Below are positions 1,948 to 62,791 of a stretch of DNA of 64,000 bases, piece after piece. The position numbers and the translations under genes are program-made. The notes under the pieces are model-generated. The model was not told the DNA's origin. It did not search any database and worked only from the letters and a program-made list of their open reading frames with translations. Origin of the DNA: Salinispira sp. (GTDB taxonomy: Bacteria; Spirochaetota; Spirochaetia; DSM-27196; Salinispiraceae); assembly GCA_965226555.1 (NCBI GenBank), contig CBDDDG010000010.1, forward strand, positions 512,001 through 576,000, written 5' to 3'. Position 1 is the stretch's first letter. Every line of letters starts with the position of its first letter.

Positions 1948-1974
1948 GAAACTTTTGCATTTTGCAAAACTTTG
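1948..1974. repeat. AT-rich palindromic element (family A), single hairpin
   Basis: GAAACTTTTGC-ATTTT-GCAAAACTTTG. Confidence 0.75.
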
Positions 1975-2068
1975 AAATTGGAACAGACACGTAACACTAC
2001 GGAGTATATCTCATACTCCCGCGGAAAACAAGTACCATGCCCAATATGTTGGTATATTTTACCCAATT

Positions 2069-3751
2069 TTATCCGGTAACCGCGCCGCCGCTTGCGCTAT
2101 TGCAGAGGCGGGCAAATTTTGCAAGCGCTCCCTCAGCGTACAGCGCTTTTTTCGGCAGCCATGTTTTTGCTCTCTGGGAAAGTTTCTGATCATCCAGCTC
2201 AACCGTAAGTGTTTTGTTTTTCAAATCGATATTGATGATATCATTATCATACAGCAGGGCAATTGGTCCTCCACTCTGAGCCTCAGGTGTAATGTGACCG
2301 ACAATGAGTCCATGACTGCCCCCGGAAAACCGTCCGTCAGTTATAAGAGCGACCTTGCCCGCAAGGCCTCGGCCTGCAATCGCTGCAGTGGGGGAGAGCA
2401 TCTCACGCATTCCCGGCCCACCCTTGGGGCCTTCATAGCGGATAACGACAACATCGCCCTCAACAATTTTTCCATCGACTATGGCCGTAAAGGCATCCGC
2501 CTCATTTTCGAAAATTCTGGCAGGGCCTCGGTGATTCTGTATTTTTAATCCGCTGGTCTTCAGCACACTCCCCTCAGGCGATAAATTACCAAAGAGCACA
2601 GCAAAGGGACCTGTTTCTTTCTGCGGAGAAGAAAATGGTTTTACCACATCCTGCTCATTAAGCTTCACTTTCACATTATGGAGATTTTCTCGTACTGTTT
2701 TTCCTGTAACAGTGAGGCAATCGCCATGAATGAGTCCTTCATCAAGAAGTATCTTCATAACCATAGCCACACCGCCGACCTTGTCGAGATCTTCCATGAC
2801 ATACCGTCCGGCAGGTTTCATATCGGTAAGGGTGGGTGTGGTGTCATAGAAATAGTTAAAATCATGAATGCTCAGCGCAACCTTGGCCTCATGGGCAAGG
2901 GCAATGAGGTGGAGTACCGCGTTCGTGCTTCCCCCAAGGGCCATGACCGTGCGGATCGCGTTTTCGAATGCCTTCCTCGTCATGATGTCCCGTGGACAGA
3001 TTCCTTCTTTTACCAAAAGGGCAAGCGCAGCGGAAGCTCTGCGAAAATGTTCATCCTGCCGATTATCAAGCGCGGGTATACCAGAACTTCCCGGCAGACT
3101 CATGCCAATTGCTTCCATGGCAGCAGCCATGGTGTTTGCCGTGTACATTCCTCCGCAGGCCCCCGCTCCCGGGCATGCTGAGCATTCTATACCGTGGCGC
3201 TCTTTTTCATCAATTTTTCCTTTGCTGAAGGCGCCTACTGCCTCAAATGCGCTGACAATATCAAGGGACTTTCCATGATAATGTCCGGCGCGAATGGTTC
3301 CCCCGTAGCAGAAAATTGCCGGTCGATTAAGACGAGCCATGGCCATAACAGTACCGGGAATGGTTTTATCGCAGCCCCCAATACCGAATATACCATCGAG
3401 CGCATGTCCCCGGACAACCAACTCAATAACATCGGCAATGGTCTCACGCGATACAAGGCTTGCCTTCATTCCCTCATGTCCCATAGCTTCGCCATCGGTT
3501 ACGACAAAGGTATTGAATTTCATGGGCTTGAGCTTGAACCTGATGAGTTCTTCCTTGGCAATAAGAGCGAGGTCATCATGATGTATATTACAGGGGCTCA
3601 GTTCAGCGCCGGAACTGGCCAGACCAATGAGCGGTTTGGTAAAATCCTCATCGGAAAATCCTATGGCGCGAAGCATGGCGCGGTTCGGCATGCGCTCGAG
3701 TCCATCAGTCATTTCACGGCTATATGTTTTACCGGTTTTTTTTTCAGACAT
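2069..3751 (-). CDS. ilvD: Dihydroxy-acid dehydratase
   Basis: PCN, GGCDKT, ACGGMYTANTM, GGSTNAVLHL, GPKGGPGMREML, TDGRFSG motifs; start moved to MSEKK (3751) to avoid overlap with rpsG. Confidence 0.95.
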   Translation of the reverse strand: MSEKKTGKTYSREMTDGLERMPNRAMLRAIGFSDEDFTKPLIGLASSGAELSPCNIHHDDLALIAKEELIRFKLKPMKFNTFVVTDGEAMGHEGMKASLVSRETIADVIELVVRGHALDGIFGIGGCDKTIPGTVMAMARLNRPAIFCYGGTIRAGHYHGKSLDIVSAFEAVGAFSKGKIDEKERHGIECSACPGAGACGGMYTANTMAAAMEAIGMSLPGSSGIPALDNRQDEHFRRASAALALLVKEGICPRDIMTRKAFENAIRTVMALGGSTNAVLHLIALAHEAKVALSIHDFNYFYDTTPTLTDMKPAGRYVMEDLDKVGGVAMVMKILLDEGLIHGDCLTVTGKTVRENLHNVKVKLNEQDVVKPFSSPQKETGPFAVLFGNLSPEGSVLKTSGLKIQNHRGPARIFENEADAFTAIVDGKIVEGDVVVIRYEGPKGGPGMREMLSPTAAIAGRGLAGKVALITDGRFSGGSHGLIVGHITPEAQSGGPIALLYDNDIINIDLKNKTLTVELDDQKLSQRAKTWLPKKALYAEGALAKFARLCNSASGGAVTG

Positions 3752-3758
3752 TATAGAA

Positions 3759-4232: not shown

Positions 4233-4240
4233 ACTTTCCT

Positions 4241-12979: not shown

Positions 12980-13076
12980 GAAACTTTTGCATAAAGCATA
13001 AGTTTCTCATTCGGAATGCTTTTATACGCTTAGCATTCTCGCATTTTGTAGAAAATTTTGCATGCACAAAACTTTT
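12980..13076. repeat. AT-rich palindromic element (family A), composite hairpin-linker-hairpin copy
   Basis: GAAACTTTTGCATAAAGCATAAGTTTC + GGAATGCT...TTAGCATTCTC linker + GTAGAAAATTTTGCATGCACAAAACTTT. Confidence 0.8.
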
Positions 13077-15413: not shown

Positions 15414-15441
15414 AGAAAGTTTTGCATTTTGCAAAACTTTC
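15414..15441. repeat. AT-rich palindromic element (family A), single hairpin
   Basis: AGAAAGTTTTGC-ATTTT-GCAAAACTTTC. Confidence 0.8.
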
Positions 15442-15863: not shown

Positions 15864-15890
15864 GAAAGTTTTACAAAATGTAAAACTTTC
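15864..15890. repeat. AT-rich palindromic element (family A), covariant hairpin
   Basis: GAAAGTTTTAC-AAAAT-GTAAAACTTTC. Confidence 0.75.
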
Positions 15891-18637: not shown

Positions 18638-18738
18638 TAGAAATTTTGCATAAAGCAAAAATTTCAGATTCGGAATGCTTTCCATGTGCTTAGCATTCTC
18701 CTATTTTATAGAATAGTTTTGCATTTTGCAAAACTTTG
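18638..18738. repeat. AT-rich palindromic element (family A), composite copy
   Basis: TAGAAATTTTGCATAAAGCAAAAATTTC + GGAATGCT...TTAGCATTCTCC + AGTTTTGCATTTTGCAAAACTTT. Confidence 0.85.
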
Positions 18739-22597: not shown

Positions 22598-23814
22598 GTA
22601 TTCATTACCTGAATTTTCAAAGTTTCAGGATCAAGTCGGTACATAGTGTCCCCACTGGGGCTGAATGTGTACAGAATATTTGAGCGGGCCTCCGTCCGGG
22701 TCTCATCAAGTAATGTACCATTGAGATCATATCGCTTCAATTTTCCTGTAGGCTCATATACGATAATATTTTCATTCGTGTAGGAAAAGCGGAACGATTT
22801 ATCGGTTGCGGAAAGATCAATTGGCTTAGTATTTCTTTGGTTGCCCGATTGAATACTATCGGGCTGGTATTCTGTTTCATAAGCAATTGCAATTATCTGA
22901 GTATTACTGAGTTCCCAGAGATGGAGCATGTTGTCTGCCAGATTGTGCAAAAGAAAAAGCGCACCGTCATTAGTTTGAATAATGCCATCAAGCTCATACC
23001 CTCGATTATCCTCACTGGCTTCAGGAGGATCCTTAACAATGTCTATCGTCTTAAGGCCGCCATCACCGTGGGGTTGCAAAGTTCCAGATGGATCAATTTC
23101 CTCCTTATACGCAGAGAGAGAAAGCTGAAAATAGCCTATCGACTCACCTTCAGCCGTTCTGTCGGAAGCTTCACCTACTCCAAAAATATACACGCCGTCT
23201 TGGGGAGTTGATGAGAAAACAACGGAAAAACCGCCAAGAAGACCATGAGCAACAGTTCCAGCGAACTCCTTGGTCTTTCTGTCAATAGTAACTGAACCAG
23301 CAAGAAAAATTGGTTTAGTTGTATTCTCGCTCTCATCTACATTCTCGCTCTCATCTACATTCTCGCCCTCATCTATAATCTCAACATCAAGGGACGCAAA
23401 CGGAAGTCCGAATGAACTCTGAAAATTGAATTCGGGTAGTATTTGCAGATACCACATAAGCTCTCCAGATTTGTTGAGCATCATCAGAATTTGCCTGCCT
23501 GCTCCCGGAGACGGACTGACGAGAAAAACCACATTCTCCTCATCATTATTCTCCTCATTTTTGTAGATGATGGGCAGGAGCTGATACCGTGTATTTGTTG
23601 AATTCGCGATGCCGGAATCAATATCAATGATGCGTTGAGCATATGCATGCTCTCTAGTTATGCCTCCCAGATAATTGGGGAAGGGACTACTTTCAAAGAG
23701 TTCACAACTGCCAATAAGTATAATAATAGCGCAACTACATAGGAGAAAGTTTTGCATTGGAAAATTGTGCAAGCACAATTTCCAGGAGCAAAAGTTTCTC
23801 AGTATTTTATTCAT
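22588..23814 (-). CDS. Lipoprotein, function unknown (signal peptide contains a family A element)
   Basis: Lipobox IILIGSC; DESENV micro-repeats. Confidence 0.65.
   Translation of the reverse strand: MNKILRNFCSWKLCLHNFPMQNFLLCSCAIIILIGSCELFESSPFPNYLGGITREHAYAQRIIDIDSGIANSTNTRYQLLPIIYKNEENNDEENVVFLVSPSPGAGRQILMMLNKSGELMWYLQILPEFNFQSSFGLPFASLDVEIIDEGENVDESENVDESENTTKPIFLAGSVTIDRKTKEFAGTVAHGLLGGFSVVFSSTPQDGVYIFGVGEASDRTAEGESIGYFQLSLSAYKEEIDPSGTLQPHGDGGLKTIDIVKDPPEASEDNRGYELDGIIQTNDGALFLLHNLADNMLHLWELSNTQIIAIAYETEYQPDSIQSGNQRNTKPIDLSATDKSFRFSYTNENIIVYEPTGKLKRYDLNGTLLDETRTEARSNILYTFSPSGDTMYRLDPETLKIQVMNTWW
23743..23800. repeat. AT-rich palindromic element (family A), nested-hairpin copy inside a CDS
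   Basis: GAGAAAGTTTTGC-ATTGGAAAATTGTGCAAGCACAATTTCCAGGA-GCAAAAGTTTCTC. Confidence 0.85.
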
Positions 23815-26789: not shown

Positions 26790-26878
26790 AGAAATTTTTG
26801 CCTAAAGCAAAAGTTCTTTATAATACACTATTAATAATGTGTATACTACCTGAAACTTTATCAATGCAAAACTTTCTA
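26790..26878. repeat. Two degenerate family A hairpins next to the IS5 end
   Basis: AGAAATTTTTGCCTAAAGCAAAAGTTCT and GAAACTTTATCAATGCAAAACTTTCT. Confidence 0.6.
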
Positions 26879-27523
26879 CCTGACATATATATCTGGAGAC
26901 CATTGCATAATCCATGGTTTTATTGATGTAGGGAAGGATGATAAAAAATTTGAGATAAAGTGATGGGATGATGCGGGAAAAACGGGGTGATAACACCATC
27001 TGAGTGCCTGCAAAGGATCGCATTTCGCTCATTTTCGACCGTTTCTCCGCTGGTTTTCGTCTTTCGGGCGTCTGTTGCCGGTCGGCTTCTGCCGTTTGTC
27101 CCGAATGCGGTCGCTAAGCCGCCCATTTTCCCTGTTTCTGCAATTCCAAAATCTTCGGTACCCGTTTCAAATTATACGCAATAGCAGACAACAGATGCTG
27201 CGTATGCGCTTTTGTTATTCCGACATAGCGGGTTCTCCCCCCGCCAAACCATTGGTGCATTCCTCCGAATGTGCGTTCTATTTTGTACCGTCCGCGCTGT
27301 ATCTCTTTGTTCCTCAGTTTCTGCTCCGCGGTCAATTGCTTCTTCTTCTCACCCTTCTTCGCTCTGGCTACCTTCCACATAATGCCGTCTTTCAGCTTTC
27401 TCTTCTTCAGCGCCGCTCGGTTCTTCGTGCTTGTATATCCTTTGTCCGCCTGCACTTCTACGTTCTCATCCAATTGCCCCTTATCGAGTAGCGTTTCAAA
27501 CACCGTACTGTCATGGACATTCG

Positions 27524-27571
27524 CCGGGGCTGGTCGGAGGCTGCGCCTCCTGCTCGCCCATGCGTCCGGGG
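27524..27571. repeat. GC-rich element (family B) inserted in frame, flanked by a CCGGGG duplication
   Basis: CCGGGG-CTGGTCGGAGGCTGCGCCTCCTGCTCGCCCATGCGT-CCGGGG; identical core at 50303-50344 and 50477-50518 (reverse). Confidence 0.85.
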
Positions 27572-28010
27572 TGGTCTCGACCGCTACCATAAGCCCATTG
27601 TCATCGGCAAGACAATGCTTCTTCGCTCCAAAATGAAATTCCCCATTCTTTTTCGTCCACCTCATATCGGTATCTACTCTGTCCGCAAACTTCTCCGGTT
27701 CCCGCTCTAAGGATTTATTATCCGATTGAGCGCATTCATCACTGTCTGTGCGATCAACGATCCCGCGGGGTTTTCTCGGACTTCTGGTAATGCTCGCATC
27801 AACTTTAACCGCTTTCTTAATCATAATCCCCCGCGTTTCAAGCTGTCGGTTTATTTCATTAAGCAGTCGGTCAAAGATTCCCGCTTTCGTCATGGCTGTG
27901 CGAAAACGGCTGAGAACACTGTGATCCGGCACATCATCTTCCACAATAAGACCGCAGAAATTCGATGCTCCCATGCTGTCATTCACCATATCTTCCACAC
28001 CATAATCGCT

Positions 28011-28141
28011 ACAAAACTTTTGCTTTGGAAAATTGTGCTTGCACAATTTCCAATAGCAAAAGTTTCAGATTCGAAATGCTTTCTCTGTGCTTAGCATTCT
28101 CCTATGCTATAGAAAGTTTTGCCTGAGGCAAAACTTCTATT
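28011..28141. repeat. Full composite family A element inserted in the IS5 transposase
   Basis: Nested hairpin + GAAATGCT...TTAGCATTCTCC linker + TAGAAAGTTTTGCCTGAGGCAAAACTTCTA. Confidence 0.9.
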
Positions 28142-28575
28142 GAGATCATTCCACATTCCCAATAGAAGCATTTTGAACAGCAGCAGGCCAGGGTAGGCAG
28201 CCCTGCCGACCGCGCTGCTTCCTCGGGTATCGTGTTCTGTAATAATTTCCTCAATGGGCTTCCAGTCGATAATCTGGTCAATTTTCCGATAGAAGGTGTT
28301 TTTCCGTGTACGTCTTTCCATACTGTCTGCGACAAATGACATAGTGTGCTCCTGAGATTTGATCATGGTAAGGATCATAACATATATATGAGGACTGATT
28401 ACAGCCAGAAAGCAAAAAATCGAAAGAAAAATTCAAAAAAGTTCATATGGGATGTTGACACTCTGGATAAATGAACGGTACTATAATATCACCGATGAGA
28501 CTGTTGCCATGCAATGATCTCATCTGGTTAATTACCCATACAGATAATTGCATACCACGTTTAGCCCAAGCCTCT

Positions 28576-30079: not shown

Positions 30080-30135
30080 AGAAATTTTTGCATTGGAAAA
30101 TTGCGCTTGCACAATTTTCAGTAGCAAAAATTTCC
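30080..30135. repeat. Family A nested-hairpin element
   Basis: AGAAATTTTTGC-ATTGGAAAATTGCGCTTGCACAATTTTCAGTA-GCAAAAATTTCC. Confidence 0.85.
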
Positions 30136-34926: not shown

Positions 34927-35810
34927 CAATGTATTCCTCCTGTATGATATGAATATTTCTGATGTTGATGTTGATTGTGCCGATTGTGGGCATTTCCGCC
35001 TTGGCGGACTGTCAGACCTTCGAGAAGCAGGACAAACAGGAAGAGCCCGATACTGAGCAGCATAATTGTTACAATTGCTGCAAATAATTGTGCCGCAGCA
35101 AAGGATTTCTGACTGCGGATGAGGTACACGCCCAATCCTGATGCCCCGCCAAGCCACTCTCCGATAACTGCCCCCATGACCGCATAGGTAGCTGAAATGC
35201 GCAGTCCGGCAAAAAATGCCGGTATTGATCCGGGGAGTTTTACATGACAGATAAGCTGCCAACGGTTCGCCCCCATGCTCCGCATCAGATCGATATAGTC
35301 GCTGTCTAATGCCCGGAAACTCTTGAGGAGATTTATCAGCATGGGGAAAAAACAGACCAGCACTACCGCGAGTATTTTCGGAAGGAAGCCGAAGCCAAAC
35401 CAGAGAACAAAGAGCGGCGCTACCGCAATGAGCGGAATTGTCTGGCTCATAACTGCCGCCGGATAGAGTAATTTGTAGACTGTTCGAAGCATATCCATGA
35501 GAAATGCGAGAATGAGGGCAAAAATGGTGGCAATAAAAAGTCCGAGGAGGGCGGCTGCCAGAGTTCCCCGGGCATGTTTCATAATTAACGGAAACTGCTC
35601 AAAGAAGGTTAACAGGACGGCATAGGGTGAAGGAAGAGCATACGGCGGCAAAAATAACGAGAGGATATGCCAGAAAGCAATGAAGAGAATGAAAGAAAGG
35701 AGGGCAAAGCTGTATTTTTGCCGGAAGTTCTGCCGGAACGTTTGCCAAAACGCGGCAAAAAACGGTGTTCCTTTGGGAGCGGTTATTTTTGGAACAGTTA
35801 TGTTTGAAAT
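34926..35810 (-). CDS. ABC transporter permease (ThiX-like); true start probably upstream of the TTG at 35651, possibly ATT at 35810
   Basis: LPSP, QTIPLIAVAPL, GAVIGEWLG motifs; frame open to 35810 and contains the first TM helix. Confidence 0.8.
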   Translation of the reverse strand: MSNITVPKITAPKGTPFFAAFWQTFRQNFRQKYSFALLSFILFIAFWHILSLFLPPYALPSPYAVLLTFFEQFPLIMKHARGTLAAALLGLFIATIFALILAFLMDMLRTVYKLLYPAAVMSQTIPLIAVAPLFVLWFGFGFLPKILAVVLVCFFPMLINLLKSFRALDSDYIDLMRSMGANRWQLICHVKLPGSIPAFFAGLRISATYAVMGAVIGEWLGGASGLGVYLIRSQKSFAAAQLFAAIVTIMLLSIGLFLFVLLLEGLTVRQGGNAHNRHNQHQHQKYSYHTGGIH

Positions 35811-35811
35811 A

Positions 35812-35903
35812 GAATGTCCCTCCGCCGGTATTATCCGGATCAGGTAAAGGGTCGAAGATCATTCTTCCTCTCAGCCGACAGAGTCAGCTCCCCTGCTGTC
35901 ATG
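35812..35903 (-). promoter_or_regulatory. TPP riboswitch
   Basis: Reverse complement GGGGAGC...GCTGAGAGG...GACCCTTTACCTGATCCGGATAATACCGGCGGAGGGA; upstream of a THI5-type ABC operon. Confidence 0.92.
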
Positions 35904-37104
35904 AACGTTTTGCAAAATTTTCAGCAGCAAAACTTTGTGTTACGTGGAATATACCGAAAATATGGATGGGAGTCAATAGCTGCCGAACACCCTTATTCTG
36001 CCTTAGGCGATCGGGCCTGAGTCGCTAAGTCGTAGGCAAAGATTTTGTCAGCCACATCATCTACCACCCACATTGTTGTGCCATCCGACCAGATGCCAGC
36101 GGGGTTAGCATTCCCTGCATCAGAAAGTGTGGCGGCATCGAAATCCGGCGGATCAGCACCGGGCGTTTTGGTTCCTCTGTTGTAGGCAAAAATTTTACTA
36201 GTGGCTGAGGGAGGCCTACTCACCACCCACATCGTTGTCTCATTCGCCCAGATGCCTTTGGGAGCGAACTTCGCAGAAAGAGTAAAATCGTTATCACTAT
36301 CGCGCATTTTGCTTGCTATGGTGTAGGCTTGAAGGCTATTAATGTTTGCGGTCGTTGTCCACATTGTTGTTCCATTTGACCAGATGCTCTCAGGAGTGGA
36401 AAGTCCGGTAGCAACAATATCAGTAATATCTTTTGCTGAATCGCGTCCTTTGTCGCTCATCCTGTAGGCACGGATGTCGGCAGGAGCTGGACCATCTGCA
36501 TTCATTACCCACATTGTTGTGCCATCCGACCAGATGCCTGAGTAAGTTCTATTACCTCCTCCATCGGGAAGTGTGAATTCTTTATCTTCATCGCGCGCCT
36601 TGGTCCCCATGTTGTAGGCATAAATTTTGTTATCCCTCCTATCCGACACCCACATTGTTGTGCCATCCGACCAGATGTCATTAGGGTCAGTATTCCCAGA
36701 GGCAAGCGCGGGGAAATCGTCTCTGTGATTCCCTGCGGAGTCATATCCTCCTTCGTCATAGTCGTCTTTGTCATAACCGTAGAGGTCGTATTCCGTGTCG
36801 GTGTCGCGGTGTTTGCCTTCAGCATTAAAGCCTTCTGCGTCATAACCCTGTTCGTCATAACCATCCGGCCCATATTTCTTTCCGTTACGATGATTGCCGT
36901 CTACATTGAAACCCGCTGCGTTATAGCCATCTTTGCCATAACCGTAGAGGTCGTATTTCATGCCGGTGTCGCGATGTTTGCCTTCAGCATTAAAGCCCTT
37001 AGCGTTGTAACCATCTTCGCCATAGCCATCATCGTTGAATTTCGTTCCGTTACGATGTTTGCCATCAGCATTAAAACCGGCAGCATTGTAACCGTCTGCT
37101 TTAT

Positions 37105-38828
37105 GAGCCTGTCGTACATAAATACCTCATGTTGTTTGATGTGAGTCGATGGATGTGGGAATGATGGTGGGAATGAGTATTGCCGTCAGTTATCGCGTTG
37201 TTTTCTTCAGGCGCGGGGTGGCATCGTGAACCCATTCGCGCTTCGATGATGCCAGTTGGAACTATGCGCGGGCGCAACGGGGGGAGTTTTTCTATTATCC
37301 ATAGGTCATTTTCAGTCGATGAAGTCTCTTGCAATTATAAGCCAACGCGACAAGTTCCCATTCACTCGTAACATGTGCAAGGCCTCTGTGGAGAAATTGT
37401 CGAAATCCCATGCACTGCTTAATAATCCCGAATACCGGTTCCACCGTCTGCTTCCTGCGGGCATAGAGCTTTCGGTTCTCGGACTTCTGAAATTTGGCGT
37501 TCATATCTTTTATCCATGGCTTGGATTCTTTTGGAGGCGTGTTGTTGGCATTCTTCTCTTCCGGTCGATAGTCATATTCTCGCGGATTATGTGTCTCTTC
37601 AGCCCGAACAGACACCAGAACATCTATCCCCATTTCTTCCTCTACTGTTTTCACTTCATCGCCATTGACAAAGCCCGCGTCAGCAAGCGCTCGCTCGGGC
37701 TTCCCGACATCTGGGGAAACAGAGAGACAATCGTTTACCAGTTCATTCCGGTCAGATGAACACTGGGAAACACGCGTCCCGACAATTAATTGCGTGCCAT
37801 CGGCATCGACTACCGCCTGAGCATTATAGGCCTGCTGTGTTCCCGATCCCTTTGTCATAATACGGCTGTCAGGATCAGTGTTGTTGCATGCCTGCTCGCC
37901 CTTCGGCAGAATCTCCTGCGCCTTCGCTGAAATGTCTTCAGGTTCATCATCGGCAAAAAGTGTTTTCTGTCCGTCCGCAGGCGGGATCGCCCGATCAGGA
38001 GGACCTTCGCTCTGAGCGTCTGTCTTCGCTCCCCCGCCGGGGGAAACATCTTCCGTATCATTTGCTCCATCTTTTTTCTCCGCTTTCTCCTGTTCTCTTT
38101 CCTCGCGGACACGCGCGCGTCTTTCCACTTCAGCTCGCGCATGGATCATCTTTTCGCGGAGTTTCTGCCTTCGGGCAATCTCCTGTGGTAATCTGTTCGC
38201 ATCCTCATCGTCTGCGGTATCGGCCGCTTCTGCCTCCACTAACAATTTCTGAATGTCCTCATCAAGCCGTTTCTCCAGCTCCTCAGCCCGATCATAGCTC
38301 ACATTTTCGAATTTACTCGCATTGGCTTTAATGTGTGTCCCATCTATACTGACCGTCCCGACCTTCAGAATGCCTATCTCTTTGGCAAGCAGCAGAATAC
38401 GGATAAACGCTTTGTGTATCGCTTCTGTATTTTTTCGGCGAAAGCGACAAATAGTATCGTGATCGGGATGCGTGTTGCCGGTCAGATAGAGCGCACAGAT
38501 ATTCTCGTACGTTGACCGTTCTATCCGGCGACTGCTAAATCGTCCTTCCGTGTAGCTATATATCAGCAAGGCAAGCATCATTTTCGGATGATATTGCTCG
38601 CTCCCGCTTCCCCGCCTATTGATATGAAAAACGGTACTGTCTATGGTGCTTACCGCTTCGTTAATAAAATTGACCAGATGATCTTCGGGAACCCAATCTC
38701 TCATATCAAGAGGCATCAGGAATTGTTGATCTTGACTACATGACTTAAATCGTTGCATGAAAAAACTATATCAGATTCTCCAATCAAACGCAATACCACT
38801 ATCAACCCGGGTAAAGTCCGACAGGCTC
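37105..38828 (-). mobile_element. IS1182-family insertion sequence, apparently intact
   Basis: IRs GAGCCTGTCGTACATA / GAGCCTGTCGGACTTT; TTAT duplication at 37101-37104 and 38829-38832. Confidence 0.92.
37295..38758 (-). CDS. IS1182-family transposase
   Basis: YHPKMMLALLIY, PDHDTICRFR, IDGTHIKANAS, TDPDSR, ADAGF, RKQTVEPVFG. Confidence 0.95.
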   Translation of the reverse strand: MQRFKSCSQDQQFLMPLDMRDWVPEDHLVNFINEAVSTIDSTVFHINRRGSGSEQYHPKMMLALLIYSYTEGRFSSRRIERSTYENICALYLTGNTHPDHDTICRFRRKNTEAIHKAFIRILLLAKEIGILKVGTVSIDGTHIKANASKFENVSYDRAEELEKRLDEDIQKLLVEAEAADTADDEDANRLPQEIARRQKLREKMIHARAEVERRARVREEREQEKAEKKDGANDTEDVSPGGGAKTDAQSEGPPDRAIPPADGQKTLFADDEPEDISAKAQEILPKGEQACNNTDPDSRIMTKGSGTQQAYNAQAVVDADGTQLIVGTRVSQCSSDRNELVNDCLSVSPDVGKPERALADAGFVNGDEVKTVEEEMGIDVLVSVRAEETHNPREYDYRPEEKNANNTPPKESKPWIKDMNAKFQKSENRKLYARRKQTVEPVFGIIKQCMGFRQFLHRGLAHVTSEWELVALAYNCKRLHRLKMTYG

Positions 38829-39440
38829 TTATAACCATTTCTATTGTAGCCATTTGCGTTGTAGCCGTCTGCGGTGTAGCCCTCCGCATCGTAGCCAGCT
38901 GCGTTATAACCGTCTTTGTTGTAGCCATCCGCATCGTAACCATCTGCGTTATAGCCGTCAATATCGTAACCGGCAGCATCGTAGCCGTCTTTGTTGTAAC
39001 CGTAGAGGTCGTATTCCGTGCCGGTGATATAGTGAATACCATCGTCATAAAACCCCCACATGTCGCAGGCAGTGAGAAGTATTCCCGCAATAAAAAATGC
39101 CGCGAGCATATATAATCCGAAACGTTTCTGCGCGGAATGCTTCCGGGCATTTTTCTTTTTGTTTAAGTTCAAATTCTTCATGAATTTCCTCCATATAGGA
39201 TAGAGTATAATGGCAGGCATAAGCCAAGGTCAAGCAAAACTTTCATATATTGCAATTCGTAAGTACACCATCAAAGCCTAATCATCCCAACACACAGCGA
39301 TGTCCGGTAAATCGTACATCGCTTTTTTTTAATGATCTCCCTGTTGCGCCTGTTGTACATCCATCCTCCCTACACTTTTTATGAATGTTCTGATATAATG
39401 CCGTGTTATGCATCCAAAATGAGCGGCAAAAGGAGCTATT

Positions 39441-44888: not shown

Positions 44889-45089
44889 GTTCCTGCGCTG
44901 CGGGAAATAATGAAAAAAAGAATGAATTTTAGGGTTTTGGGGTATGTAAGGGGTGGAGAATGGTGTAGTCTGAGTACTCAGAACCGATGAATAATTTTTT
45001 CTGCGTGGAAAAAAGACTACCGGCAGATATAATGGAGTTATGCAAAAGTTTCTGTTATAATACTTCCAGTTATTAAGAAGGAGGAAAAT

Positions 45090-47261
45090 ATGTGTGTTCA
45101 TTTTATGCGGAGAGGAACCCTTTTTCTATTCTGCTCAATGTTTATTGTATTGATGGCGGGATGTCCAATGCCGGAACCCAATATGGGGGGGGGGGGGGGG
45201 GGGGGTAATGTAAGCCCGCCGGGCACAATGGATGCCCCAACTCTTGAAGCGGGAGATGAGCAACTCATTGCAACATGGACTGCGCCAACAAACACCGGCG
45301 GCAGCGAAATTACCGGCTATGAACTGCAATATAGCTCAGATGGCGGAACCACATGGTCAGATCCTCCTATTGAAGTCGCCGCGCTAGCCGCAAAGGCCAT
45401 CATCTCCGGCCTGAGCAACGGCAGCAGTTATGAAGTACAGGTACGCGCAGTCAACGCGCAGGGCGCAGGCGGCTGGTCGGACAGCGCATTAGCAAGCCCT
45501 GTTGCCGTTCCCCATGCTCCGAACGCTCCCGGGCTTACCCCGGAAAATAGTCAACTAACAGTTTATTGGACTGCGCCGACCAGCGATGGTGGCAGCGCCA
45601 TTACCGGCTATGAGCTGCAATATAGACAATATAGCTCAGACGGCGGAACCACATGGTCGGATCCTCCTATTGAAGTCGCCGCTCCAGCCACAAAGACCAT
45701 CATCACCGGCCTAATCAACGGCAGCAGTTATGAAGTACAGGTACGCGCCGTCAACGCGCAGGGCGCAGGCGGCTGGTCGGACAGCGCATTAGCAAGCCCT
45801 GTTGCCGTTCCCGGTGCTCCCGACTTGCCAAGCCTCACCGTGGAAAATGAGCAACTTCGCATTTCATGGGCAGCGCCGACCAACACCGGCGGCAGCGACA
45901 TTACCGGCTATGACCTGCGCTACGCACTAAACAATTCACCCCTGCCGGACGATCCGCAAATTAGCAACACAAGCAATACCTCTCATACCATTATGCAACT
46001 GGAAATTGGCAGCCGCTACACCGTACAGGTGCGCGGCATCAACGCGCAGGGCAGGGGTTCGTGGTCAGAATCCGCAGCGAAAACATTCCCGCTCATTGCG
46101 ACACAGGTGCCGGAGGGTACGGAGGTCTTTGTCATTCTTTCGACTGTTGACAACGCAATTGCCAATGCCGCAAACCCAAACATTACTGTGGTTCCAGTTA
46201 CTTCCCCGGCATTAACGGTCGTCTTACCGACAATTGATGCGGCTACCGGAATTATTATGGTTACCGCAAGCACAAGCCCGGGAACATATACGGTATCTGG
46301 TACAGACGGAGGAAGCGAACTGTTTGCCCCCGAAAAGTTCTCTGTTACCCTGAGTCCTCCTACTAACGCTGAACTGAAAACAGCGGTAACTAATGGAATA
46401 TCAAACTGGGGACAAACTGCCGATCTCAACTACATTCTTACCGCGGCAGTAACGGACATGTCCGAAGTGTTCAAAGATAAAACCGCATTCAATGGAAATA
46501 TCTCGGGTTGGACTGTCAGCGCTGTAACGGATATGTCGGAAATGTTCAATAACGCAGACGCATTCAATCGTGATCTTAATAATTGGGATGTCAGCGCGGT
46601 AACGGATATGTCGGGGATGTTCCATCGCACAGACGCATTCAATGGCAATATCTCAAGCTGGAATGTCAGCTCGGTAACAGATATGTCGCAAATGTTCAGT
46701 GACACAGACGCATTCAATAGCAACATCTCGGGCTGGACTGTCAGTAAGGTAACGGATATGTTGGGGATGTTCAATAACGCAAGCGCATTCAATGGCAATA
46801 TCTCGGGATGGAATGTCAGCGCGGTAACGAATATGTCGGGGATGTTTGGTAACACAAGCGCATTCAATGGCGACATTTCCGGTTGGGATGTCAGTAAGGT
46901 AACGACTATGGCCAGTATGTTCCAGAGCGCAATCGCATTCAATGGCAACATTTCCGGTTGGGATGTCAGCTCGGTAACGACTATGAGCAATATGTTCGTT
47001 TTTACAAGCGCATTCAATGGCGACATCTCCGGTTGGGATGTCAGCTCGGTAACGACTATGTATTCTATGTTCTTTTTGGCAAGCGCATTCAATCAGAATC
47101 TTACTGCATGGGGCGGGACAGATGAAGGGAGCTTACGGCGTGATCCTAATGATAATAGCAAATATGGAGTAACGGTAACGGATATGTTTACGAGTTCCGG
47201 CGTTGTGGATACCGGGGGCGTGGGTGTTCCCGATTGGTATACTGAGATTATTGCCTATTAA
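45090..47261 (+). CDS. Surface lipoprotein: 3 fibronectin type III domains + DUF285/BspA-like 25-aa repeats
   Basis: Lipobox LMAGC; WTAP...GGSxITGY...YEVQVRAVN x3; AFNGNISGWDVSxVTxMxxMF repeats. Confidence 0.9.
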   Translation: MCVHFMRRGTLFLFCSMFIVLMAGCPMPEPNMGGGGGGGNVSPPGTMDAPTLEAGDEQLIATWTAPTNTGGSEITGYELQYSSDGGTTWSDPPIEVAALAAKAIISGLSNGSSYEVQVRAVNAQGAGGWSDSALASPVAVPHAPNAPGLTPENSQLTVYWTAPTSDGGSAITGYELQYRQYSSDGGTTWSDPPIEVAAPATKTIITGLINGSSYEVQVRAVNAQGAGGWSDSALASPVAVPGAPDLPSLTVENEQLRISWAAPTNTGGSDITGYDLRYALNNSPLPDDPQISNTSNTSHTIMQLEIGSRYTVQVRGINAQGRGSWSESAAKTFPLIATQVPEGTEVFVILSTVDNAIANAANPNITVVPVTSPALTVVLPTIDAATGIIMVTASTSPGTYTVSGTDGGSELFAPEKFSVTLSPPTNAELKTAVTNGISNWGQTADLNYILTAAVTDMSEVFKDKTAFNGNISGWTVSAVTDMSEMFNNADAFNRDLNNWDVSAVTDMSGMFHRTDAFNGNISSWNVSSVTDMSQMFSDTDAFNSNISGWTVSKVTDMLGMFNNASAFNGNISGWNVSAVTNMSGMFGNTSAFNGDISGWDVSKVTTMASMFQSAIAFNGNISGWDVSSVTTMSNMFVFTSAFNGDISGWDVSSVTTMYSMFFLASAFNQNLTAWGGTDEGSLRRDPNDNSKYGVTVTDMFTSSGVVDTGGVGVPDWYTEIIAY
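45185..45205 (+). repeat. G21 homopolymer in the coding sequence just after the lipobox
   Basis: 21 consecutive G, currently in frame. Confidence 0.9.
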
Positions 47262-47744: not shown

Positions 47745-47860
47745 AAATGACTTTTTACCCGTTATAGATATATAAGGGAGAATTCACCATGGGACCATGT
47801 CGCCATGGGAGCTCCCCTATTAAGAAAAAAACGTTCAAAAAAAATCTTCAGGAGGATTGT

Positions 47861-48997
47861 ATGATCGATTTCAAAGAAAAACCCGCCCCCGTTCCCTACG
47901 ACCAAGGATACCGCTCCCTACTGTTCCAACCCGCAATAATGCTCCAATTTCTTCAACGCTTTGTCGGAGGCGCATGGACGAAAAAACTCCGAACCGAGGA
48001 TATAACCATTGAAAACGGTACCTTTTTTATCGACCATGCGAAAACACGGATGGCCGACATCGTCTGCAAAATCAGGACTCGGGATCACACGGGAGATGTT
48101 GCTATCTATGTGCTCCTTGAGCATCAGTCTGGAGTGGACAAAGACATGCCCCTCCGCATGTCGGAATATACGAATCTGCTCTATCGGAACATTCACCGCT
48201 CCGGAGAAATTCCCGATGACTGCGAGGTGGTATTTCTGCCCATTGTGTTCTATAATGGTACGCGAAAATGGAAGGTGCCGGGGAATGTCAGAGAGCGGAA
48301 CACGCGGGAATTCCCGCAGTATCTTGCTCCTTTTCCCTACGATCTTATTAACGAGAGCGATTATTCTGCGGAGCAGCTGCAGCAGCGGGGAAGAATGTTT
48401 GCGGCTGTCATGTACCTTGATCTGTACTCGAAAAATCTACTGAATACGGATTGGGACATTCGGAAGGTGGAGAAAGCGATAGCAGAAATGCTGAATGAGG
48501 AATCGCTGGAGCTGATAGAGGAATTTGTCGGCGTGGTAGATTCGATGTTCGGAATTGTTATAGACTTTGACACGTTAATGAAACAATTACAAAGAACAAA
48601 AGAACCGAGAGGTAAGGAGGTAGCAAAAATGTTCAGAATGAATGCGGAAACATTCAGAGCGCGCATTGCGGAAATGGGTCGGCAGGAAGGACTTCAGGCA
48701 GGATTGCAGACAGGTCGTGAAGAAGGACTTCAGACAGGTCGGCAGGAAGGATTGCAAGAAGGACTTCAGACAGGATTGCAGACAGGTCGTGAAGAAGGAC
48801 TGCAGACAGGTCGGCAGGAAGGACTTCAGACAGGATTGCAGACAGGTCGGCAGGAAGGCCGCGCGGAGGGGCATATTGAGGAACGGAGAAAAAACGCCCG
48901 CAGTATGTTTTTGGAAGGCTTGTCGACCGAGGCTGTTCAGAGAATTACCGGGCTGAGCGATGAGGAAATGCGGACAGTGCGGAACGGATCGCATTAA
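47861..48997 (+). CDS. Rpn family (YhgA-like PD-(D/E)XK) recombination-promoting nuclease / putative transposase
   Basis: ADIV, LEHQS, MPLRM..Y, PIVFYNG..W motifs; C-terminal GRQEG repeats and HTH-like tail; GGAGG SD. Confidence 0.9.
   Translation: MIDFKEKPAPVPYDQGYRSLLFQPAIMLQFLQRFVGGAWTKKLRTEDITIENGTFFIDHAKTRMADIVCKIRTRDHTGDVAIYVLLEHQSGVDKDMPLRMSEYTNLLYRNIHRSGEIPDDCEVVFLPIVFYNGTRKWKVPGNVRERNTREFPQYLAPFPYDLINESDYSAEQLQQRGRMFAAVMYLDLYSKNLLNTDWDIRKVEKAIAEMLNEESLELIEEFVGVVDSMFGIVIDFDTLMKQLQRTKEPRGKEVAKMFRMNAETFRARIAEMGRQEGLQAGLQTGREEGLQTGRQEGLQEGLQTGLQTGREEGLQTGRQEGLQTGLQTGRQEGRAEGHIEERRKNARSMFLEGLSTEAVQRITGLSDEEMRTVRNGSH
48629..48997 (+). CDS. Putative in-frame intragenic small protein (RpnS-like, 122 aa)
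   Basis: AAGGAGGT SD upstream of an in-frame ATG (MFRMNAE...). Confidence 0.6.
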   Translation: MFRMNAETFRARIAEMGRQEGLQAGLQTGREEGLQTGRQEGLQEGLQTGLQTGREEGLQTGRQEGLQTGLQTGRQEGRAEGHIEERRKNARSMFLEGLSTEAVQRITGLSDEEMRTVRNGSH

Positions 48998-49113: not shown

Positions 49114-49177
49114 AATAGTAGAAAGTTTTGCATAAATAAAATTTTGCCTTGAAAAATTGTGCAGAGCACAATTTTCT

Positions 49178-49609
49178 GTGAGAATATCGGGTCAATAAAA
49201 GACTATTCAAAAGAAACAATTGCCATACTCAAAGATATGATACAGAATGAGAGTGCCGAAAATAAAGAGGTATTGTATGACAAAGTTTTGCATTCTGCAA
49301 AACTTTCTACAAAGTGCGAGAATGCTCCGCACATAAAAGCATTCCAAATGAGAAACTTTTGCTACTGGAAATTGTGCAAGCACAATTTTCCAATGCAAAA
49401 GTTTCTGTGAATGGATAAGCATACGGTTTTATGGTACGATAACGAAAGATGAGGCAAAGAAATTATTTGCTGCTCGGACCCAGCGTGATCATGCAATCAA
49501 AATGTTCAAAGAGGGTCTGTCTATGGACCTTATTCATAAGATTACCGATCTCAGCAGGGATGAAATTCGAGCATTTCAGAAAAACGGTAGTGAAAACGGT
49601 AAAAAGTAA
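49178..49609 (+). pseudogene. C-terminal remnant of an Rpn paralogue interrupted by a family A element
   Basis: AIKMFKEGLSMDLIHKITDLSRDEI matches ARSMFLEGLSTEAVQRITGLSDEEM; removing 49281-49410 joins KEVLY-EWISI. Confidence 0.65.
49281..49407. repeat. Full composite family A element flanked by TGA/TGA
   Basis: Hairpin + GAGAATGCT...AGCATTCC linker + nested hairpin. Confidence 0.85.
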
Positions 49610-49746: not shown

Positions 49747-49802
49747 GAAAGGTTTACTACTGGAAATTGTGCACGCACAATTTTCCAATGCAAAACTTTC
49801 TG
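49747..49802. repeat. Family A nested-hairpin element upstream of the antitoxin gene
   Basis: CTACTGGAAATTGTGCACGCACAATTTTCCAATGCAAAACTTTC. Confidence 0.75.
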
Positions 49803-50182: not shown

Positions 50183-50208
50183 AATCAATTACTGAGACTA
50201 TGAGAAAC

Positions 50209-50582
50209 TTTTCCAATGCAAAAGTTTCCTGTACAAAGTTTTGCAAAATGCAAAACTTTCTATAAAATAGGAGAATGCTAAGCACAAAGAAAGCATTCCT
50301 GACGGACGCATGGGCGAGCAGGAGGCGCAGCCTCCGACCAGCCCTCGGAAACTTTTGCTACTGGAAATTGCGTTCTGCACAATTTTCCAATGCAAAAGTT
50401 TCCTGTACAAAGTTTTGCAAAATGCAAAACTTTCTATAAAATAGGAGAATGCTAAGCACAAAGAAAGCATTCCTGACGGACGCATGGGCGAGCAGGAGGC
50501 GCAGCCTCCGACCAGCCCTCGGAAACTTTTGCTACTGGAAATTGCGTTCTGCACAATTTTCCAATGCAAAAGTTTCCTGTAT
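50209..50582. repeat. Perfect 174-bp tandem repeat (about 2.1 units), composite of families A and B
   Basis: TTCCAATGCAAAAGTTTCCTGTA recurs at 50211, 50385 and 50559. Confidence 0.92.
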
Positions 50583-55728: not shown

Positions 55729-55932
55729 ATATCCTCCCATTAGCACATTTTGCATTATACACAAAATCGGAACAACGGCGCTGCGCCTGTATTTCCCATA
55801 TAATAGAAACTTTTGCAAAAGTTTGGGATATTACGGTTTGATCAGACCCCACTTTGACCTATTTATGCGATCATTTCTTCCGATTCCCTCCATCGCCCGC
55901 GGGGAGATCGCGTGAGCCGTTGCTGGGGAGAA

Positions 55933-58682: not shown

Positions 58683-58725
58683 TAGAAAATTTTGCTCAGC
58701 AAAATTTTCAGTAGCAAAATTTTGA
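58683..58725. repeat. Degenerate family A element between cysS and the ECF sigma
   Basis: TAGAAAATTTTGCTCAGCAAAATTTTCAGTAGCAAAATTTTG. Confidence 0.65.
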
Positions 58726-60201: not shown

Positions 60202-60215
60202 TATACTATGGGAAT

Positions 60216-61139
60216 ATGAGCATTCTATTTCAGAACCTGAAAAGTATCAAGCTGCGCGGCAGAATACGCTGGAACTTTCCCATGGCAGAGCTGAGCAGTT
60301 TCAAAACCGGCGGTTCTGCCGACATTGCGACATGGCCCGAGAGTACGGAGGAGCTGCTCGCGCTTGTACATGCGGCGCGGGCGCAGAACCTGCCATGGAT
60401 TGTTCTGGGCGGCGGGTCGAACATCCTCATTTCCGACCGGGGCATACGCGGAATGGTCATTCTCACCACGGAAATGAATGATATACGGCGGGAAGGGCAG
60501 CGTGTTATTGCGGCTCCCGGGGCGCCTATGAGCGAAGTGTCTGCCAGAGCAGCAAACTGGGGACTGGCCGGGCTCGATTTTATATACGCGATGCCCGGCA
60601 GTTCCGGCGGCGCCGTGTGGATGAATGCCCGTTGTTACGGATCGGAAATTGCCGATGTTCTTGAATGGACGGAGTATATTGATATTGATGCCGATCCGCT
60701 CGAAGTGAAGCGGCTTGCCATTCATGCAGATGATTTTTCCTACAAGCGCTCACCTTTTCAGCGTAACCGGAACATTATCCTTGAGAGCTCCTACCTGCTT
60801 ACACTGGGAAAACGGGAAGAACTCTGGAAAAAGATGCGGGAACATGAGGACGACAGAACACGAAAGGGGCATTTTCTTGCGCCCTGCGCGGGAAGCATAT
60901 TCAAAAACAACCGGAGCTTTGGCGCGCCATCGGGAAAGATCATTGATAGCCTCAAAATGCGGGGAACAAGAATTGGCGGAGCAAAGGTATCCGATCTTCA
61001 TGCGAACATTATCATTAATGAAAACACAGCATCCGCCGCCGAAATTGCGCGGCTCATTCATCTCATTCATGAGCGGGTGCTGGAAGAATTGGGATTCGAC
61101 CTTGAGCCTGAGGTCATTAAGATCGGGCAATGGAGCTAA
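60216..61139 (+). CDS. murB: UDP-N-acetylenolpyruvoylglucosamine reductase
   Basis: LGGGSNIL, PGSSGGAVWMNA, AGSIFKN, HANIIIN, LEPEV. Confidence 0.95.
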   Translation: MSILFQNLKSIKLRGRIRWNFPMAELSSFKTGGSADIATWPESTEELLALVHAARAQNLPWIVLGGGSNILISDRGIRGMVILTTEMNDIRREGQRVIAAPGAPMSEVSARAANWGLAGLDFIYAMPGSSGGAVWMNARCYGSEIADVLEWTEYIDIDADPLEVKRLAIHADDFSYKRSPFQRNRNIILESSYLLTLGKREELWKKMREHEDDRTRKGHFLAPCAGSIFKNNRSFGAPSGKIIDSLKMRGTRIGGAKVSDLHANIIINENTASAAEIARLIHLIHERVLEELGFDLEPEVIKIGQWS

Positions 61140-62791
61140 TTTTTTAGGGAGCATTCAACATTGAATTCCCAGCCCTCCAGGAATGCCCTCGGTTCGGCAC
61201 CGTAGAGTATGCGGTCGAAAAAGATATTTCCGGGCGAGCGCATGCTGTATTCCAACGTGAACTGATGTGTGGGGCGATCAATGCTCAGGGCTGCGCGCAG
61301 TTCCATACCGACCATTATGTCGAAGGGACTGGGCAGGAAGTCTATGCGCTGTTCCGCATCGTTTGTGCCCCAAATACCTGTCTCCAGCACGAAGGAGGGC
61401 AGCGTCAAAACAAGGGAGGCCGACATCCTATCAAAATAGGGCTGCAAATCTTCCCATAGAATCTTGAAATCAATTTCCGATCGGACAACATCGCCGATGG
61501 AGGCAGCAATGAGGGTGGAGAAATTGTTCTGGTTGGGACGATACTCAACATTCAGTTTTCCCTTCAGCAGATTCGAACCGCCCTCCACTCCCAGAACAAT
61601 ACGTGTATCGTCCTGCCACTTTTCCAGAAATGATATATATGTCGAAAAGCTGTTTTTAATATCCATTCTTCCCTCGAATTTGACAAACCTCCCCTTTTTT
61701 ACATCGATGCCGTAATTGGAATCGGGATCGGAACCTGAGCCGGATCGCAGGTAGCTTTCGGAAAGATATGCCCCCCGCACAGCAACATTCCATGAGATGG
61801 AATCTTCCAATGGGGAGCCGAAACCATATGGTATTTTTCCCTTAACCTGCCAGTTTAGTCTTAGCCACCAGGAAGGAGGATTGACAACATAGGGAATTTC
61901 GGGGTGCAGGGATACCTGCAAACCAGCATAGGCATTCAGATTTTCGGAAATTTGTGTGTCGATATCGGAGGACTGTGTCTTAACCGCGAGTACATTGTTC
62001 AGCAAAACACGATTACCCGGCATCCACAAATTATGAAGCAGATCATCCCTGCCAGCCCCCTCCCAGTTTTCAACCTGACTTATGATGCGAAGGGAAAACG
62101 GGGCAGCAGCGGTCGTGGAGCTGGCAGGCGGGCTGGCAGCAGCGCCCGGCACACCGGCATCGCCCGGCGGGTTACCGGTCGGGTTACCGGTCGAGTTACC
62201 GGTCGAGTTACCGGTCGGGTTACCGGTCGGGTTGCCGGAAAACATTCCCGGGACAATGTGCAGTATTATCCCGAAATTTCTGAACTGGCCGTTCGGGAAA
62301 AAGGAGGATGCAAGAAGCATGGACGGCAAACTGAGCTGAAGAGCCGGAAAATGCGCATCGGAGCCGGGGAGACCGAAGAATATCATGCTGTCCGATGCCT
62401 TTGTGCCTGACAGCGGATTCCGAATGAGCCCCGATATTCCCCGCTGACTGAGCATTCCCGCAGTGAGATGAATAGCATTATCGGGGAAGGCGTACTCGGC
62501 TGCGAGCAGATAGTTAGAAAAGCACAGGGGATATGGACCGCAGCGTACCGAGAGATCGGATACTGCCATTCTGAGAATGATATTGTCGTTTTCCAGTTCG
62601 ATCTGGAGATCATACGAACGAAAATCCAATGTTTTCGTGCTTATCTCAAAATTCTGGAAAATTTCATCCCCAAACAATCCGGGAGGCTTGAGAACCTGCA
62701 CAGCGATGAAAATAAAAATGCAAAGAACGTTTTGCCTTATGCAAAATTTTCTTCCCGGATATTCCTGTTTTGATGAAATACACCTGCCCAT
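61136..62791 (-). CDS. Hypothetical (probably secreted) protein with GNPT/GNST micro-repeats
   Basis: Long ORF, hydrophobic N-terminal segment; start uncertain. Confidence 0.55.
   Translation of the reverse strand: MGRCISSKQEYPGRKFCIRQNVLCIFIFIAVQVLKPPGLFGDEIFQNFEISTKTLDFRSYDLQIELENDNIILRMAVSDLSVRCGPYPLCFSNYLLAAEYAFPDNAIHLTAGMLSQRGISGLIRNPLSGTKASDSMIFFGLPGSDAHFPALQLSLPSMLLASSFFPNGQFRNFGIILHIVPGMFSGNPTGNPTGNSTGNSTGNPTGNPPGDAGVPGAAASPPASSTTAAAPFSLRIISQVENWEGAGRDDLLHNLWMPGNRVLLNNVLAVKTQSSDIDTQISENLNAYAGLQVSLHPEIPYVVNPPSWWLRLNWQVKGKIPYGFGSPLEDSISWNVAVRGAYLSESYLRSGSGSDPDSNYGIDVKKGRFVKFEGRMDIKNSFSTYISFLEKWQDDTRIVLGVEGGSNLLKGKLNVEYRPNQNNFSTLIAASIGDVVRSEIDFKILWEDLQPYFDRMSASLVLTLPSFVLETGIWGTNDAEQRIDFLPSPFDIMVGMELRAALSIDRPTHQFTLEYSMRSPGNIFFDRILYGAEPRAFLEGWEFNVECSLKN

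What the first reader, a model, noticed from the sequence alone, without database searches (positions are those of the whole stretch)
1948..62752. Dense family of AT-rich modular palindromic elements (REP/REPIN-like) across the window
Seen: about 20 full or partial copies (1948, 12980, 15414, 15864, 18638, 23743, 26790, 26852, 28011, 30080, 35905, 49119, 49281, 49747, 50203-50580, 55803, 58683, 62725; half-arms near 39233 and 45041). They are built from three interchangeable modules. (i) Arms GAAA[GCA]TTTTGC...GCAAAA[CGA]TTTC around a short loop. (ii) The same arms around a nested GGAAAATTGTGC-NN-GCACAATTTCC hairpin. (iii) A GAATGCT...AGCATTC linker hairpin. Several arms are preceded by GTAG/ATAG/CTAG. 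Established: GTAG plus hairpin is the signature of REPs mobilised by RAYT/TnpA(REP) HUH nucleases, and paired REPs with a conserved linker form BIMEs/REPINs; well-known REPs are GC-rich. Inference: this is an AT-rich, recently active non-autonomous element family in a spirochete that I do not recognise, whose mobiliser is encoded elsewhere.
Basis: partly seen in the sequence, partly recalled or inferred. Interest (0 to 1): 0.82.

Follow-up and report, generated by a model that had tools for sequence, protein, structure and literature searches.

The report
IS5-type hairpin mini-transposon and its stumps
The palindromes are real: hundreds of copies of a gene-less mini-transposon that duplicates 5 bases of its target and shares its ends with a resident IS5-family insertion sequence that likely moves it, while the 25-55-base forms are likely collapsed leftovers; a new family of a known kind, not REP/RAYT elements.

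Summary
The repeats are real: 655 catalogued modules (1.0% of this spirochaete genome), against 0-1 hairpins or linkers in shuffles. The full unit is about 126 bp: short hairpin, linker, nested hairpin. It is a MITE, not a REP. At 36 independent sites of the main branch, 25 have an exact 5-bp target duplication. Empty sites exist in paralogues, including the window's IS5 gene at 28010-28140, and at 3 orthologous sites in a related strain. The 'GTAG/ATAG' is the duplicated target's end plus the terminal G (GTAG at 40 of 1004 ends). No RAYT or Y1 transposase was found. A resident 1340-bp IS5-family element has near-identical ends (GAAACCTTTGCA), 5-bp duplications (7 of 10 copies) and a similar target preference, so it is the likely mobiliser; this is inferred, not shown. 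Solo 27- and 54-bp forms carry the full unit's two outer arms, so they likely arise by deletion between internal repeats. Unexplained: a more diverged subgroup, including the 28010 copy, whose junctions do not copy the target. The scan found this family before on other DNA of this genome, with the same reading.

The parts
1948..1974 (.). 27-bp stump (two outer arms around a 5-base loop), exact 5-bp duplication AAATT
12980..13076 (-). 97-bp short-linker-short form between rplJ and rplL, exact duplication TTCCT
15415..15441 (.). 27-bp stump upstream of nusG; also present in the related strain
15864..15890 (.). 27-bp stump, degenerate; also present in the related strain
18639..18738 (-). short-linker-short form
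23745..23798 (.). 54-bp nested-hairpin solo
26791..26817 (.). degenerate short hairpin (below catalogue threshold)
26852..26876 (.). 25-bp collapsed nested form, exact duplication TACCT
26896..28521 (-). Second IS5-family element (IS-B), 5-bp duplication ATCTG, ends GAGACCATTGCA; its transposase gene is interrupted by the MITE; a 99.8% identical interrupted copy lies on C26 in a different target duplication (GTATA)
28010..28140 (-). Full 126-bp unit plus 5 extra bases, absent from three IS-B paralogues; the extra bases do not copy the target (left CGCTA, right TATTG, empty CGCTG)
30081..30134 (.). 54-bp nested solo between cytidylate-kinase-like and LMW phosphatase genes, exact duplication CTCTA
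35905..35937 (.). collapsed remnant next to a TPP riboswitch (35799-35904)
39233..39244 (.). single arm
44982..45052 (+). Last 71 bp of the 1340-bp IS5 element (IS-A), the likely mobiliser; full copies lie elsewhere, e.g. C18:62204-63543
49121..49175 (.). degenerate short plus inner-hairpin remnant
49281..49405 (+). full 125-bp unit, duplication with one mismatch (TATGA/TGTGA)
49747..49800 (.). 54-bp nested solo
50204..50581 (+). 25-bp remnant followed by two identical 174-bp tandem units (full unit carrying the 42-bp GC-rich insert in its linker), each followed by CTGTA
55806..55824 (.). about 20-bp collapsed remnant abutting an IS481-like end
58685..58723 (.). inner-hairpin remnant plus outer arm
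62725..62751 (.). 27-bp stump, degenerate

Best explanation
A gene-less 126-bp miniature inverted-repeat transposon (MITE) that inserts with a 5-bp target duplication and is likely moved in trans by the DDE transposase of the resident 1340-bp IS5-family element, with the 25-55-bp forms likely left behind by deletion between repeated arms inside the unit. Shown: one ordered unit (27-bp hairpin, linker, 54-bp nested hairpin) bounded by 11-12-bp arms; 5-bp duplications; empty sites; ends and target preference shared with the IS. Inferred: the IS5 enzyme pairs the two outermost arms, cuts with a 5-base stagger at AT-rich (C)TNNNA(G) sites, and repair makes the duplication. Because each end is itself an arm pair, the unit holds two direct repeats; slippage or recombination between them (hairpin-assisted, inferred) removes the middle and leaves a 27- or 54-bp stump in the original duplication, like a solo LTR. 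It is selfish DNA that survives mainly between genes; no host function was shown.
For: Duplication: 19 of 54 full units have exact 5-bp direct repeats versus 0-1 at lengths 3, 4 and 6-9; permuted flanks give means of 0.8, 1.3 and 1.7 against 19/50, 25/156 and 33/286 observed; 25 of 36 independent main-branch sites exact. Empty sites: 131 bp missing from three IS-B paralogues; 67 of 535 isolated elements have a candidate empty paralogue, 36 of them with exactly 5 extra bases (rows not independent); the related strain skips 32, 131 and 137 bp at three sites. Mobiliser: IS-A ends GAAACCTTTGCA / GAAAC[CT]TTTGAA versus MITE GAAACTTTTGCA; exact 5-bp duplications at 7 of 10 copies, all ending in A, 6 of 7 starting with T, as for MITE targets (T 73%, A 73%); 7 intact 337-aa matches at 99-100% identity; NF033581 228 bits, cut-off 140. 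Movement in trans seems to occur here: the MITE-broken IS-B sits at two sites with different duplications. Collapse: inside full units the short part has arm type g/g (42 of 50) and the nested part c/c (49 of 50), the outer pair is c/g (43 of 50); solos with exact duplication are c/g in 14 of 23 short (g/g 2, ambiguous 7) and 13 of 25 nested (c/c 1, g/g 4, ambiguous 7); four paralogous site groups hold different forms at the same spot.
Against: No transposition assay; the link to IS-A rests on 11-12 bp of end identity and target match. IS-B also makes 5-bp duplications (5 of 5). 18 of the 67 empty-site rows add 4 bases rather than 5, and 13 add other numbers. The window's own 28010 insertion adds 5 bases that do not copy the target. 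In the C-loop subgroup only 1 of 5 sites is exact. Most solos lack an exact duplication (33 of 286, 25 of 156). One terminal base is often C rather than the IS's G. Each orthologous empty site rests on a single contig of depth about 4.5-4.8.
Confidence: 0.82

Rival explanations
1. Same MITE, but moved by the other resident IS5-family element (IS-B, GAGACCATTGCA ends) or by a lost ancestor with hairpinned GAAA ends.
For: IS-B makes 5-bp duplications (5 of 5) and its own 5' end is a 25-bp arm-pair hairpin, the same architecture as the MITE's ends; three intact copies at 381-395 aa open frames.
Against: Ends match the MITE arm at 9 of 12 positions versus 11 of 12 for IS-A; its targets (ATCTG, AGTAT, TATTT, TATAT, GTATA) lack the T...A preference; 18 separate GAGA-type hairpins exist.
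Confidence: 0.08
2. The 27- and 54-bp hairpins are transposition substrates in their own right, not only collapse products.
For: 33 short and 25 nested solos sit in exact duplications; a 27+5-bp indel separates this genome from the related strain and from paralogues; short forms outnumber full units.
Against: Solos carry the outer arms of the full unit rather than their own module's arms, and both first-base variants of the full unit recur among them (14 C to 8 G among right-end GTTTC solos); the same paralogous site holds full and collapsed forms. 27 bp looks too short for a paired-end complex (my knowledge, untested).
Confidence: 0.1
3. REP/REPIN-like elements spread by an HUH (RAYT/Y1) nuclease, or at least the subgroup without duplications is.
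For: Strong single-strand hairpins; some junctions lack a duplication; the genome is 93.5% complete, so a gene could be missing.
Against: No PF01797 or NF047646 match; GTAG at 40 of 1004 ends; 5-bp duplications in the main branch; only 60 of 584 intergenic copies lie between convergent genes versus 218 of 1265 gaps; the subgroup lacking duplications is also more diverged (P 0.005), so age may explain it.
Confidence: 0.04
4. Host-selected regulatory or nucleoid-protein sites (transcription-factor palindromes).
For: Mostly intergenic; a -10-like hexamer sits 4 bases beyond the end on 25 of 106 gene-facing flanks versus 87 of 710 others.
Against: Insertion polymorphism with duplications, insertion into IS genes, absence of the pattern from 40 relatives; the -10 excess is not significant once the target's TA is fixed (P 0.10).
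Confidence: 0.03

Closest known systems
IS5-family MITEs with ISPg1/ISNme1-type ends: BrickBuilt and MITEPgRS of Porphyromonas gingivalis, ATR of Neisseria meningitidis (PMC4596501, passages and Table 2 read)
   Same: Gene-less, intergenic, 12-bp ends of the same type (ISPg1 GAGACCATTGCA, ISNme1 GAGACCTTTGCAAAA) matched to resident IS5 elements; mobilisation inferred from ends.
   Different: About 19 copies there versus hundreds here; their interior is a minisatellite, here it is extra arm pairs; their duplications vary in length, here 5 bp; systematic collapse to 27/54-bp stumps was not in the passages read.
ISAba23 (IS5 family, NF033581 type)
   Same: 46% identical to the IS-A transposase over 319 aa; its left end reads GAAACCTTTGCAC like IS-A.
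   Different: Autonomous element of Acinetobacter/Moraxella plasmids; no 5-bp duplication at the one site I read; no plasmid match to the MITE.
MITEAba12 (PMC6382973, passages read)
   Same: 113-bp AT-rich MITE tied to a resident IS by shared ends and duplication length; 40% of copies keep duplications.
   Different: 9-bp duplication, 16-bp ends, at most 22 copies per genome, mobility observed directly.
REP/BIME/REPIN with RAYT (PMC8266576 and PMC3184786, passages read)
   Same: Hundreds of short intergenic palindromes, composite forms with a linker.
   Different: No conserved GTAG, no RAYT, AT-rich, 5-bp duplications, ends of an IS5 element.

Membership tests
MITE (non-autonomous IS derivative) | Short, no transposase, many copies | tested here: met
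   124-127 bp unit; 655 modules
MITE (non-autonomous IS derivative) | Terminal inverted repeats | tested here: met
   11-bp arms [CG]AAAGTTTTGC / GCAAAAGTTTC
MITE (non-autonomous IS derivative) | Target-site duplication of fixed length | tested here: met
   5 bp; 25 of 36 main-branch sites exact; 1 of 5 in the diverged subgroup
MITE (non-autonomous IS derivative) | Empty sites / insertion polymorphism | tested here: met
MITE (non-autonomous IS derivative) | Resident IS with matching ends and duplication | tested here: met
   IS-A: 11 of 12 end bases, 5-bp duplication at 7 of 10 copies
MITE (non-autonomous IS derivative) | Mobilisation in trans by that transposase | not testable with these tools
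   needs an assay; only indirect sign is broken IS-B at two sites
IS5 family (the partner element) | IS5 transposase profile above cut-off, intact frame | tested here: met
   NF033581 228 bits vs 140; 7 intact copies
REP/REPIN-RAYT | Conserved GTAG 5' of the palindrome | tested here: not met
   40 of 1004 ends
REP/REPIN-RAYT | RAYT/Y1 HUH transposase in the genome, flanked by the repeats | tested here: not met
   genome 93.5% complete
REP/REPIN-RAYT | Imperfect hairpin on single strand | tested here: met
   (predicted only)
Described RNA families (Rfam) | Match at gathering score | tested here: not met
   only three tRNAs and a TPP riboswitch in the window
ISfinder-listed elements | Sequence match to a registered IS or MITE | not testable with these tools

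The most novel reading that the evidence does not exclude
The IS5 transposase moves bare 27-bp arm-pair hairpins directly, which would make them far smaller than the 50-bp lower bound quoted for prokaryotic MITEs, and/or a sister branch integrates without copying its target, carrying 3-5 bases from its previous site through a circular intermediate.
Probability: 0.12. Interest if true: 0.7.

Novelty: new variant of a known kind. Interest (0 to 1): 0.32.

Why it matters
It shows how one IS5 invasion of a single spirochaete lineage can seed hundreds of REP-looking palindromes with no RAYT involved, so GTAG-plus-hairpin alone is not a safe REP diagnosis. The build (every end an arm pair, collapse to 27-bp stumps that keep the duplication) makes a clean natural test of how small a DDE substrate can be. 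The insertions sit inside core operons (rplJ-rplL, upstream of nusG) and often next to promoter-like sequence, so effects on expression are possible but unshown.

Tried and rejected
RAYT/Y1 mobiliser: not found. Other multicopy IS (IS481-like, IS3, IS30, IS982, IS1182, a third IS5 with GGGAAG ends, an unclassified 428-aa family): ends do not match the arms. C26 as an assembly duplicate of the window: rejected, only the IS-B element is shared. Hybrid promoter from the arm's TTGCA and a flanking -10: enrichment on gene-facing flanks (P 0.004) vanishes when conditioned on the target's TA (P 0.10) and is not specific to TTGCA ends. Orientation bias toward genes: 12 vs 6, P 0.24; the 30:9 bias is inflated by duplicated cassettes. 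GAGA-type 25-bp hairpins as parallel stumps of IS-B: only 1 of 18 has an exact 5-bp repeat, so not claimed. A distinct duplication-free mechanism for the C-loop subgroup: confounded with age, 5 sites only, Fisher P 0.08. No RNA holder listed, so expression is untested.
Full report
Observation. The listed copies are all present. The genome (G000, 2.98 Mb, 47% GC, 93.5% complete) holds 1530 arms, 291 short hairpins, 306 nested hairpins and 95 linkers, against 47-58, 0, 0 and 0-1 in three shuffles. A fuzzy catalogue gave 655 modules: 62 full units (short S + linker K + nested N, 124-127 bp), 14 S-K-S, 1 N-K-N, 200 N and 378 S, 30,086 bp or 1.0% of the genome. The S class includes inner-hairpin remnants, and some modules are parts of larger degenerate copies, so loci number fewer than 655. 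The host is a spirochaete by its L1 protein (75% to Salinispira pacifica). Rfam gives nothing for the repeats.

They are insertions with a 5-bp duplication. The copy at 28010-28140 interrupts an IS5-family gene and is absent from three paralogues that are 96-99.6% identical. Of 54 full units with distinct flanks, 19 have an exact 5-bp direct repeat, versus 0-1 at 3, 4 and 6-9 bp. With permuted flanks the expected counts are 0.8, 1.3 and 1.7 against 19 of 50 full, 25 of 156 N and 33 of 286 S. After merging duplicated cassettes, 75 full or S-K-S copies fall into 42 sites: 25 of 36 main-branch sites are exact, 1 of 5 C-loop sites, and 1 nested site was set apart. 67 of 535 isolated elements have a candidate empty paralogue; 36 add exactly 5 bases, 18 add 4, 13 other numbers; these rows are not independent. 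In two runs of another study holding a related strain (mostly 95-99% alike), contigs skip 32, 131 and 137 bases at three elements in a 16-kb stretch with at least 7 elements; each rests on one contig of depth about 4.5-4.8, and the other elements were not bridged in the listed output. In the window, the same runs carry the stumps at 15415 and 15864 and lack the 28010 insertion in their IS-B contig, which may be a paralogue.

Not REP/RAYT. No PF01797 match and no NF047646 match above noise. The 84 exact targets show T first and A last in 73%, with C before and G after in 53%, so 'NTAG' is the end of the duplication plus the element's G; GTAG itself stands at 40 of 1004 ends. In REP systems the GTAG is conserved and used for recognition and cleavage-site choice (PMC8266576, passages). 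Only 60 of 584 intergenic modules are between convergent genes.

The likely mobiliser. Among multicopy IS families, one 1340-bp element (IS-A, e.g. C18:62204-63543) has ends GAAACCTTTGCA and GAAAC[CT]TTTGAA, 11 of 12 identical to the MITE arm. Six uninterrupted copies are 98.6-100% identical; 7 of 10 copies with both ends have exact 5-bp duplications, all ending in A. One copy sits in TATTA directly beside a MITE-type end, and arm-to-arm spacers peak at 5 bases (14 cases). Its transposase is IS5 family, intact in 7 copies and not found in 98 other genomes of the order; the nearest listed proteins outside this organism are about 50% identical, and ISAba23 is 46% identical with the same left end. 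This suggests lateral arrival (inference). The window's 45041 'half-arm' is IS-A's last 71 bp. A second IS5 element, IS-B (window 26896-28521), also duplicates 5 bp and has a hairpinned 5' end, but matches the arms less well. Its MITE-broken copy occurs at two sites with different duplications and 99.8% identity, which points to movement in trans, though gene conversion is not excluded.

Why it looks modular. The unit has four arms, so it contains two direct repeats. A diagnostic fifth base is g/g in the S part (42 of 50), c/c in the N part (49 of 50) and c/g for the outer pair (43 of 50). Solos in exact duplications are c/g in 14 of 23 S (2 g/g, 7 ambiguous) and 13 of 25 N (1 c/c, 4 g/g, 7 ambiguous), and four paralogous site groups carry different forms at one spot. 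Deletion between repeated arms after insertion explains this; independent jumping of S or N modules would keep g/g or c/c. A hybrid stump that became mobile itself is not excluded.

What is unexplained. At 28010 the added 5 bases do not copy the target (left CGCTA, right TATTG, empty CGCTG), and several C-loop copies add 4 bases, often TGT, TGG or AGK before a target A. These copies are also further from their nearest relatives (3-11 differences versus a median of 1, P 0.005), so decay and recombination among duplicated cassettes may suffice; loss of duplications by degeneration, recombination or adjacent deletion is described for IS generally (PMC11708052, abstract only). Five sites are too few to decide.

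Host effects. 65 of 655 modules fall inside mechanically called ORFs, many of them doubtful; 290 lie within 500 bases of the 251 Rpn-family ORFs, about 14% of the genome. A -10-like hexamer 4 bases beyond the end is commoner on gene-facing flanks (25 of 106 vs 87 of 710) but not significantly so once the target's TA is fixed. No function is shown.

Known context. IS5-family MITEs with this end type are described in Porphyromonas and Neisseria (PMC4596501, passages and Table 2); the same logic of matched ends and duplication ties MITEAba12 to ISAba12 (PMC6382973, passages). Spirochaetes rich in MITEs, averaging 145 per genome in one cluster, and a 50-800 bp size range are reported (PMC11602168, passages; supplements not read and could list this family). 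PMC3184786 was read in passages. Five searches (listings only, apart from the papers named) showed no description of this family or of bacterial MITEs collapsing to stumps; the library is incomplete. Earlier scan notes on this genome reached the same reading after I had recorded mine; they pointed me to BrickBuilt's table and stressed the duplication-free subgroup.

Verdict. Real, mobile, and explained as an IS5-type MITE with an unusual arm-pair build. Interest 0.32.

Noticed in passing
window 27527-27568, 50303-50344, 50477-50518: A second, GC-rich 42-bp repeat: an in-frame insertion in IS-B (CCGG duplicated; absent from the C1 copy and from the related strain's contig) and nested in the MITE linker. 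49 near-full copies genome-wide, several in tandem arrays; 118 copies of its 17-base core. Mobiliser unknown.
   Followed up: partly
window 26896-28521 and G000:C26:8371-9996: IS-B copy with a MITE-broken transposase lies at two sites with different 5-bp duplications, a sign of recent movement in trans; IS-B's own 5' end is a 25-bp hairpin, and 18 similar GAGA-type hairpins are scattered in the genome.
   Followed up: partly
window 47789-48997 and genome-wide: Very large Rpn/YhgA-like family: 251 ORFs or fragments; 290 of 655 repeat modules lie within 500 bases of them.
   Followed up: partly
window 45090-47261 and genome-wide: 111 related fibronectin-III/DUF285-type ORFs with lipoprotein-like starts, suggestive of a host-associated lifestyle.
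   Followed up: no
G000:C1:42637-43923: A 9-copy 428-aa ORF inside a 1463-bp element with CAGAACTTCCCCAACAA inverted ends and apparently long flanking repeats has no NCBIfam match: an unclassified IS.
   Followed up: no
window 37100-38832 and 35993-39220: An IS1182 element interrupts a gene made of 15-bp (five-residue) repeats.
   Followed up: no
G000:C12:84255-84724: A roughly 470-bp element with IS-A-like left and right ends around sequence from a third IS5 element; other orphan 71-bp IS-A right ends exist, one at window 44982 just upstream of a gene.
   Followed up: partly
window 35799-35937: A TPP riboswitch abuts a collapsed repeat remnant.
   Followed up: no
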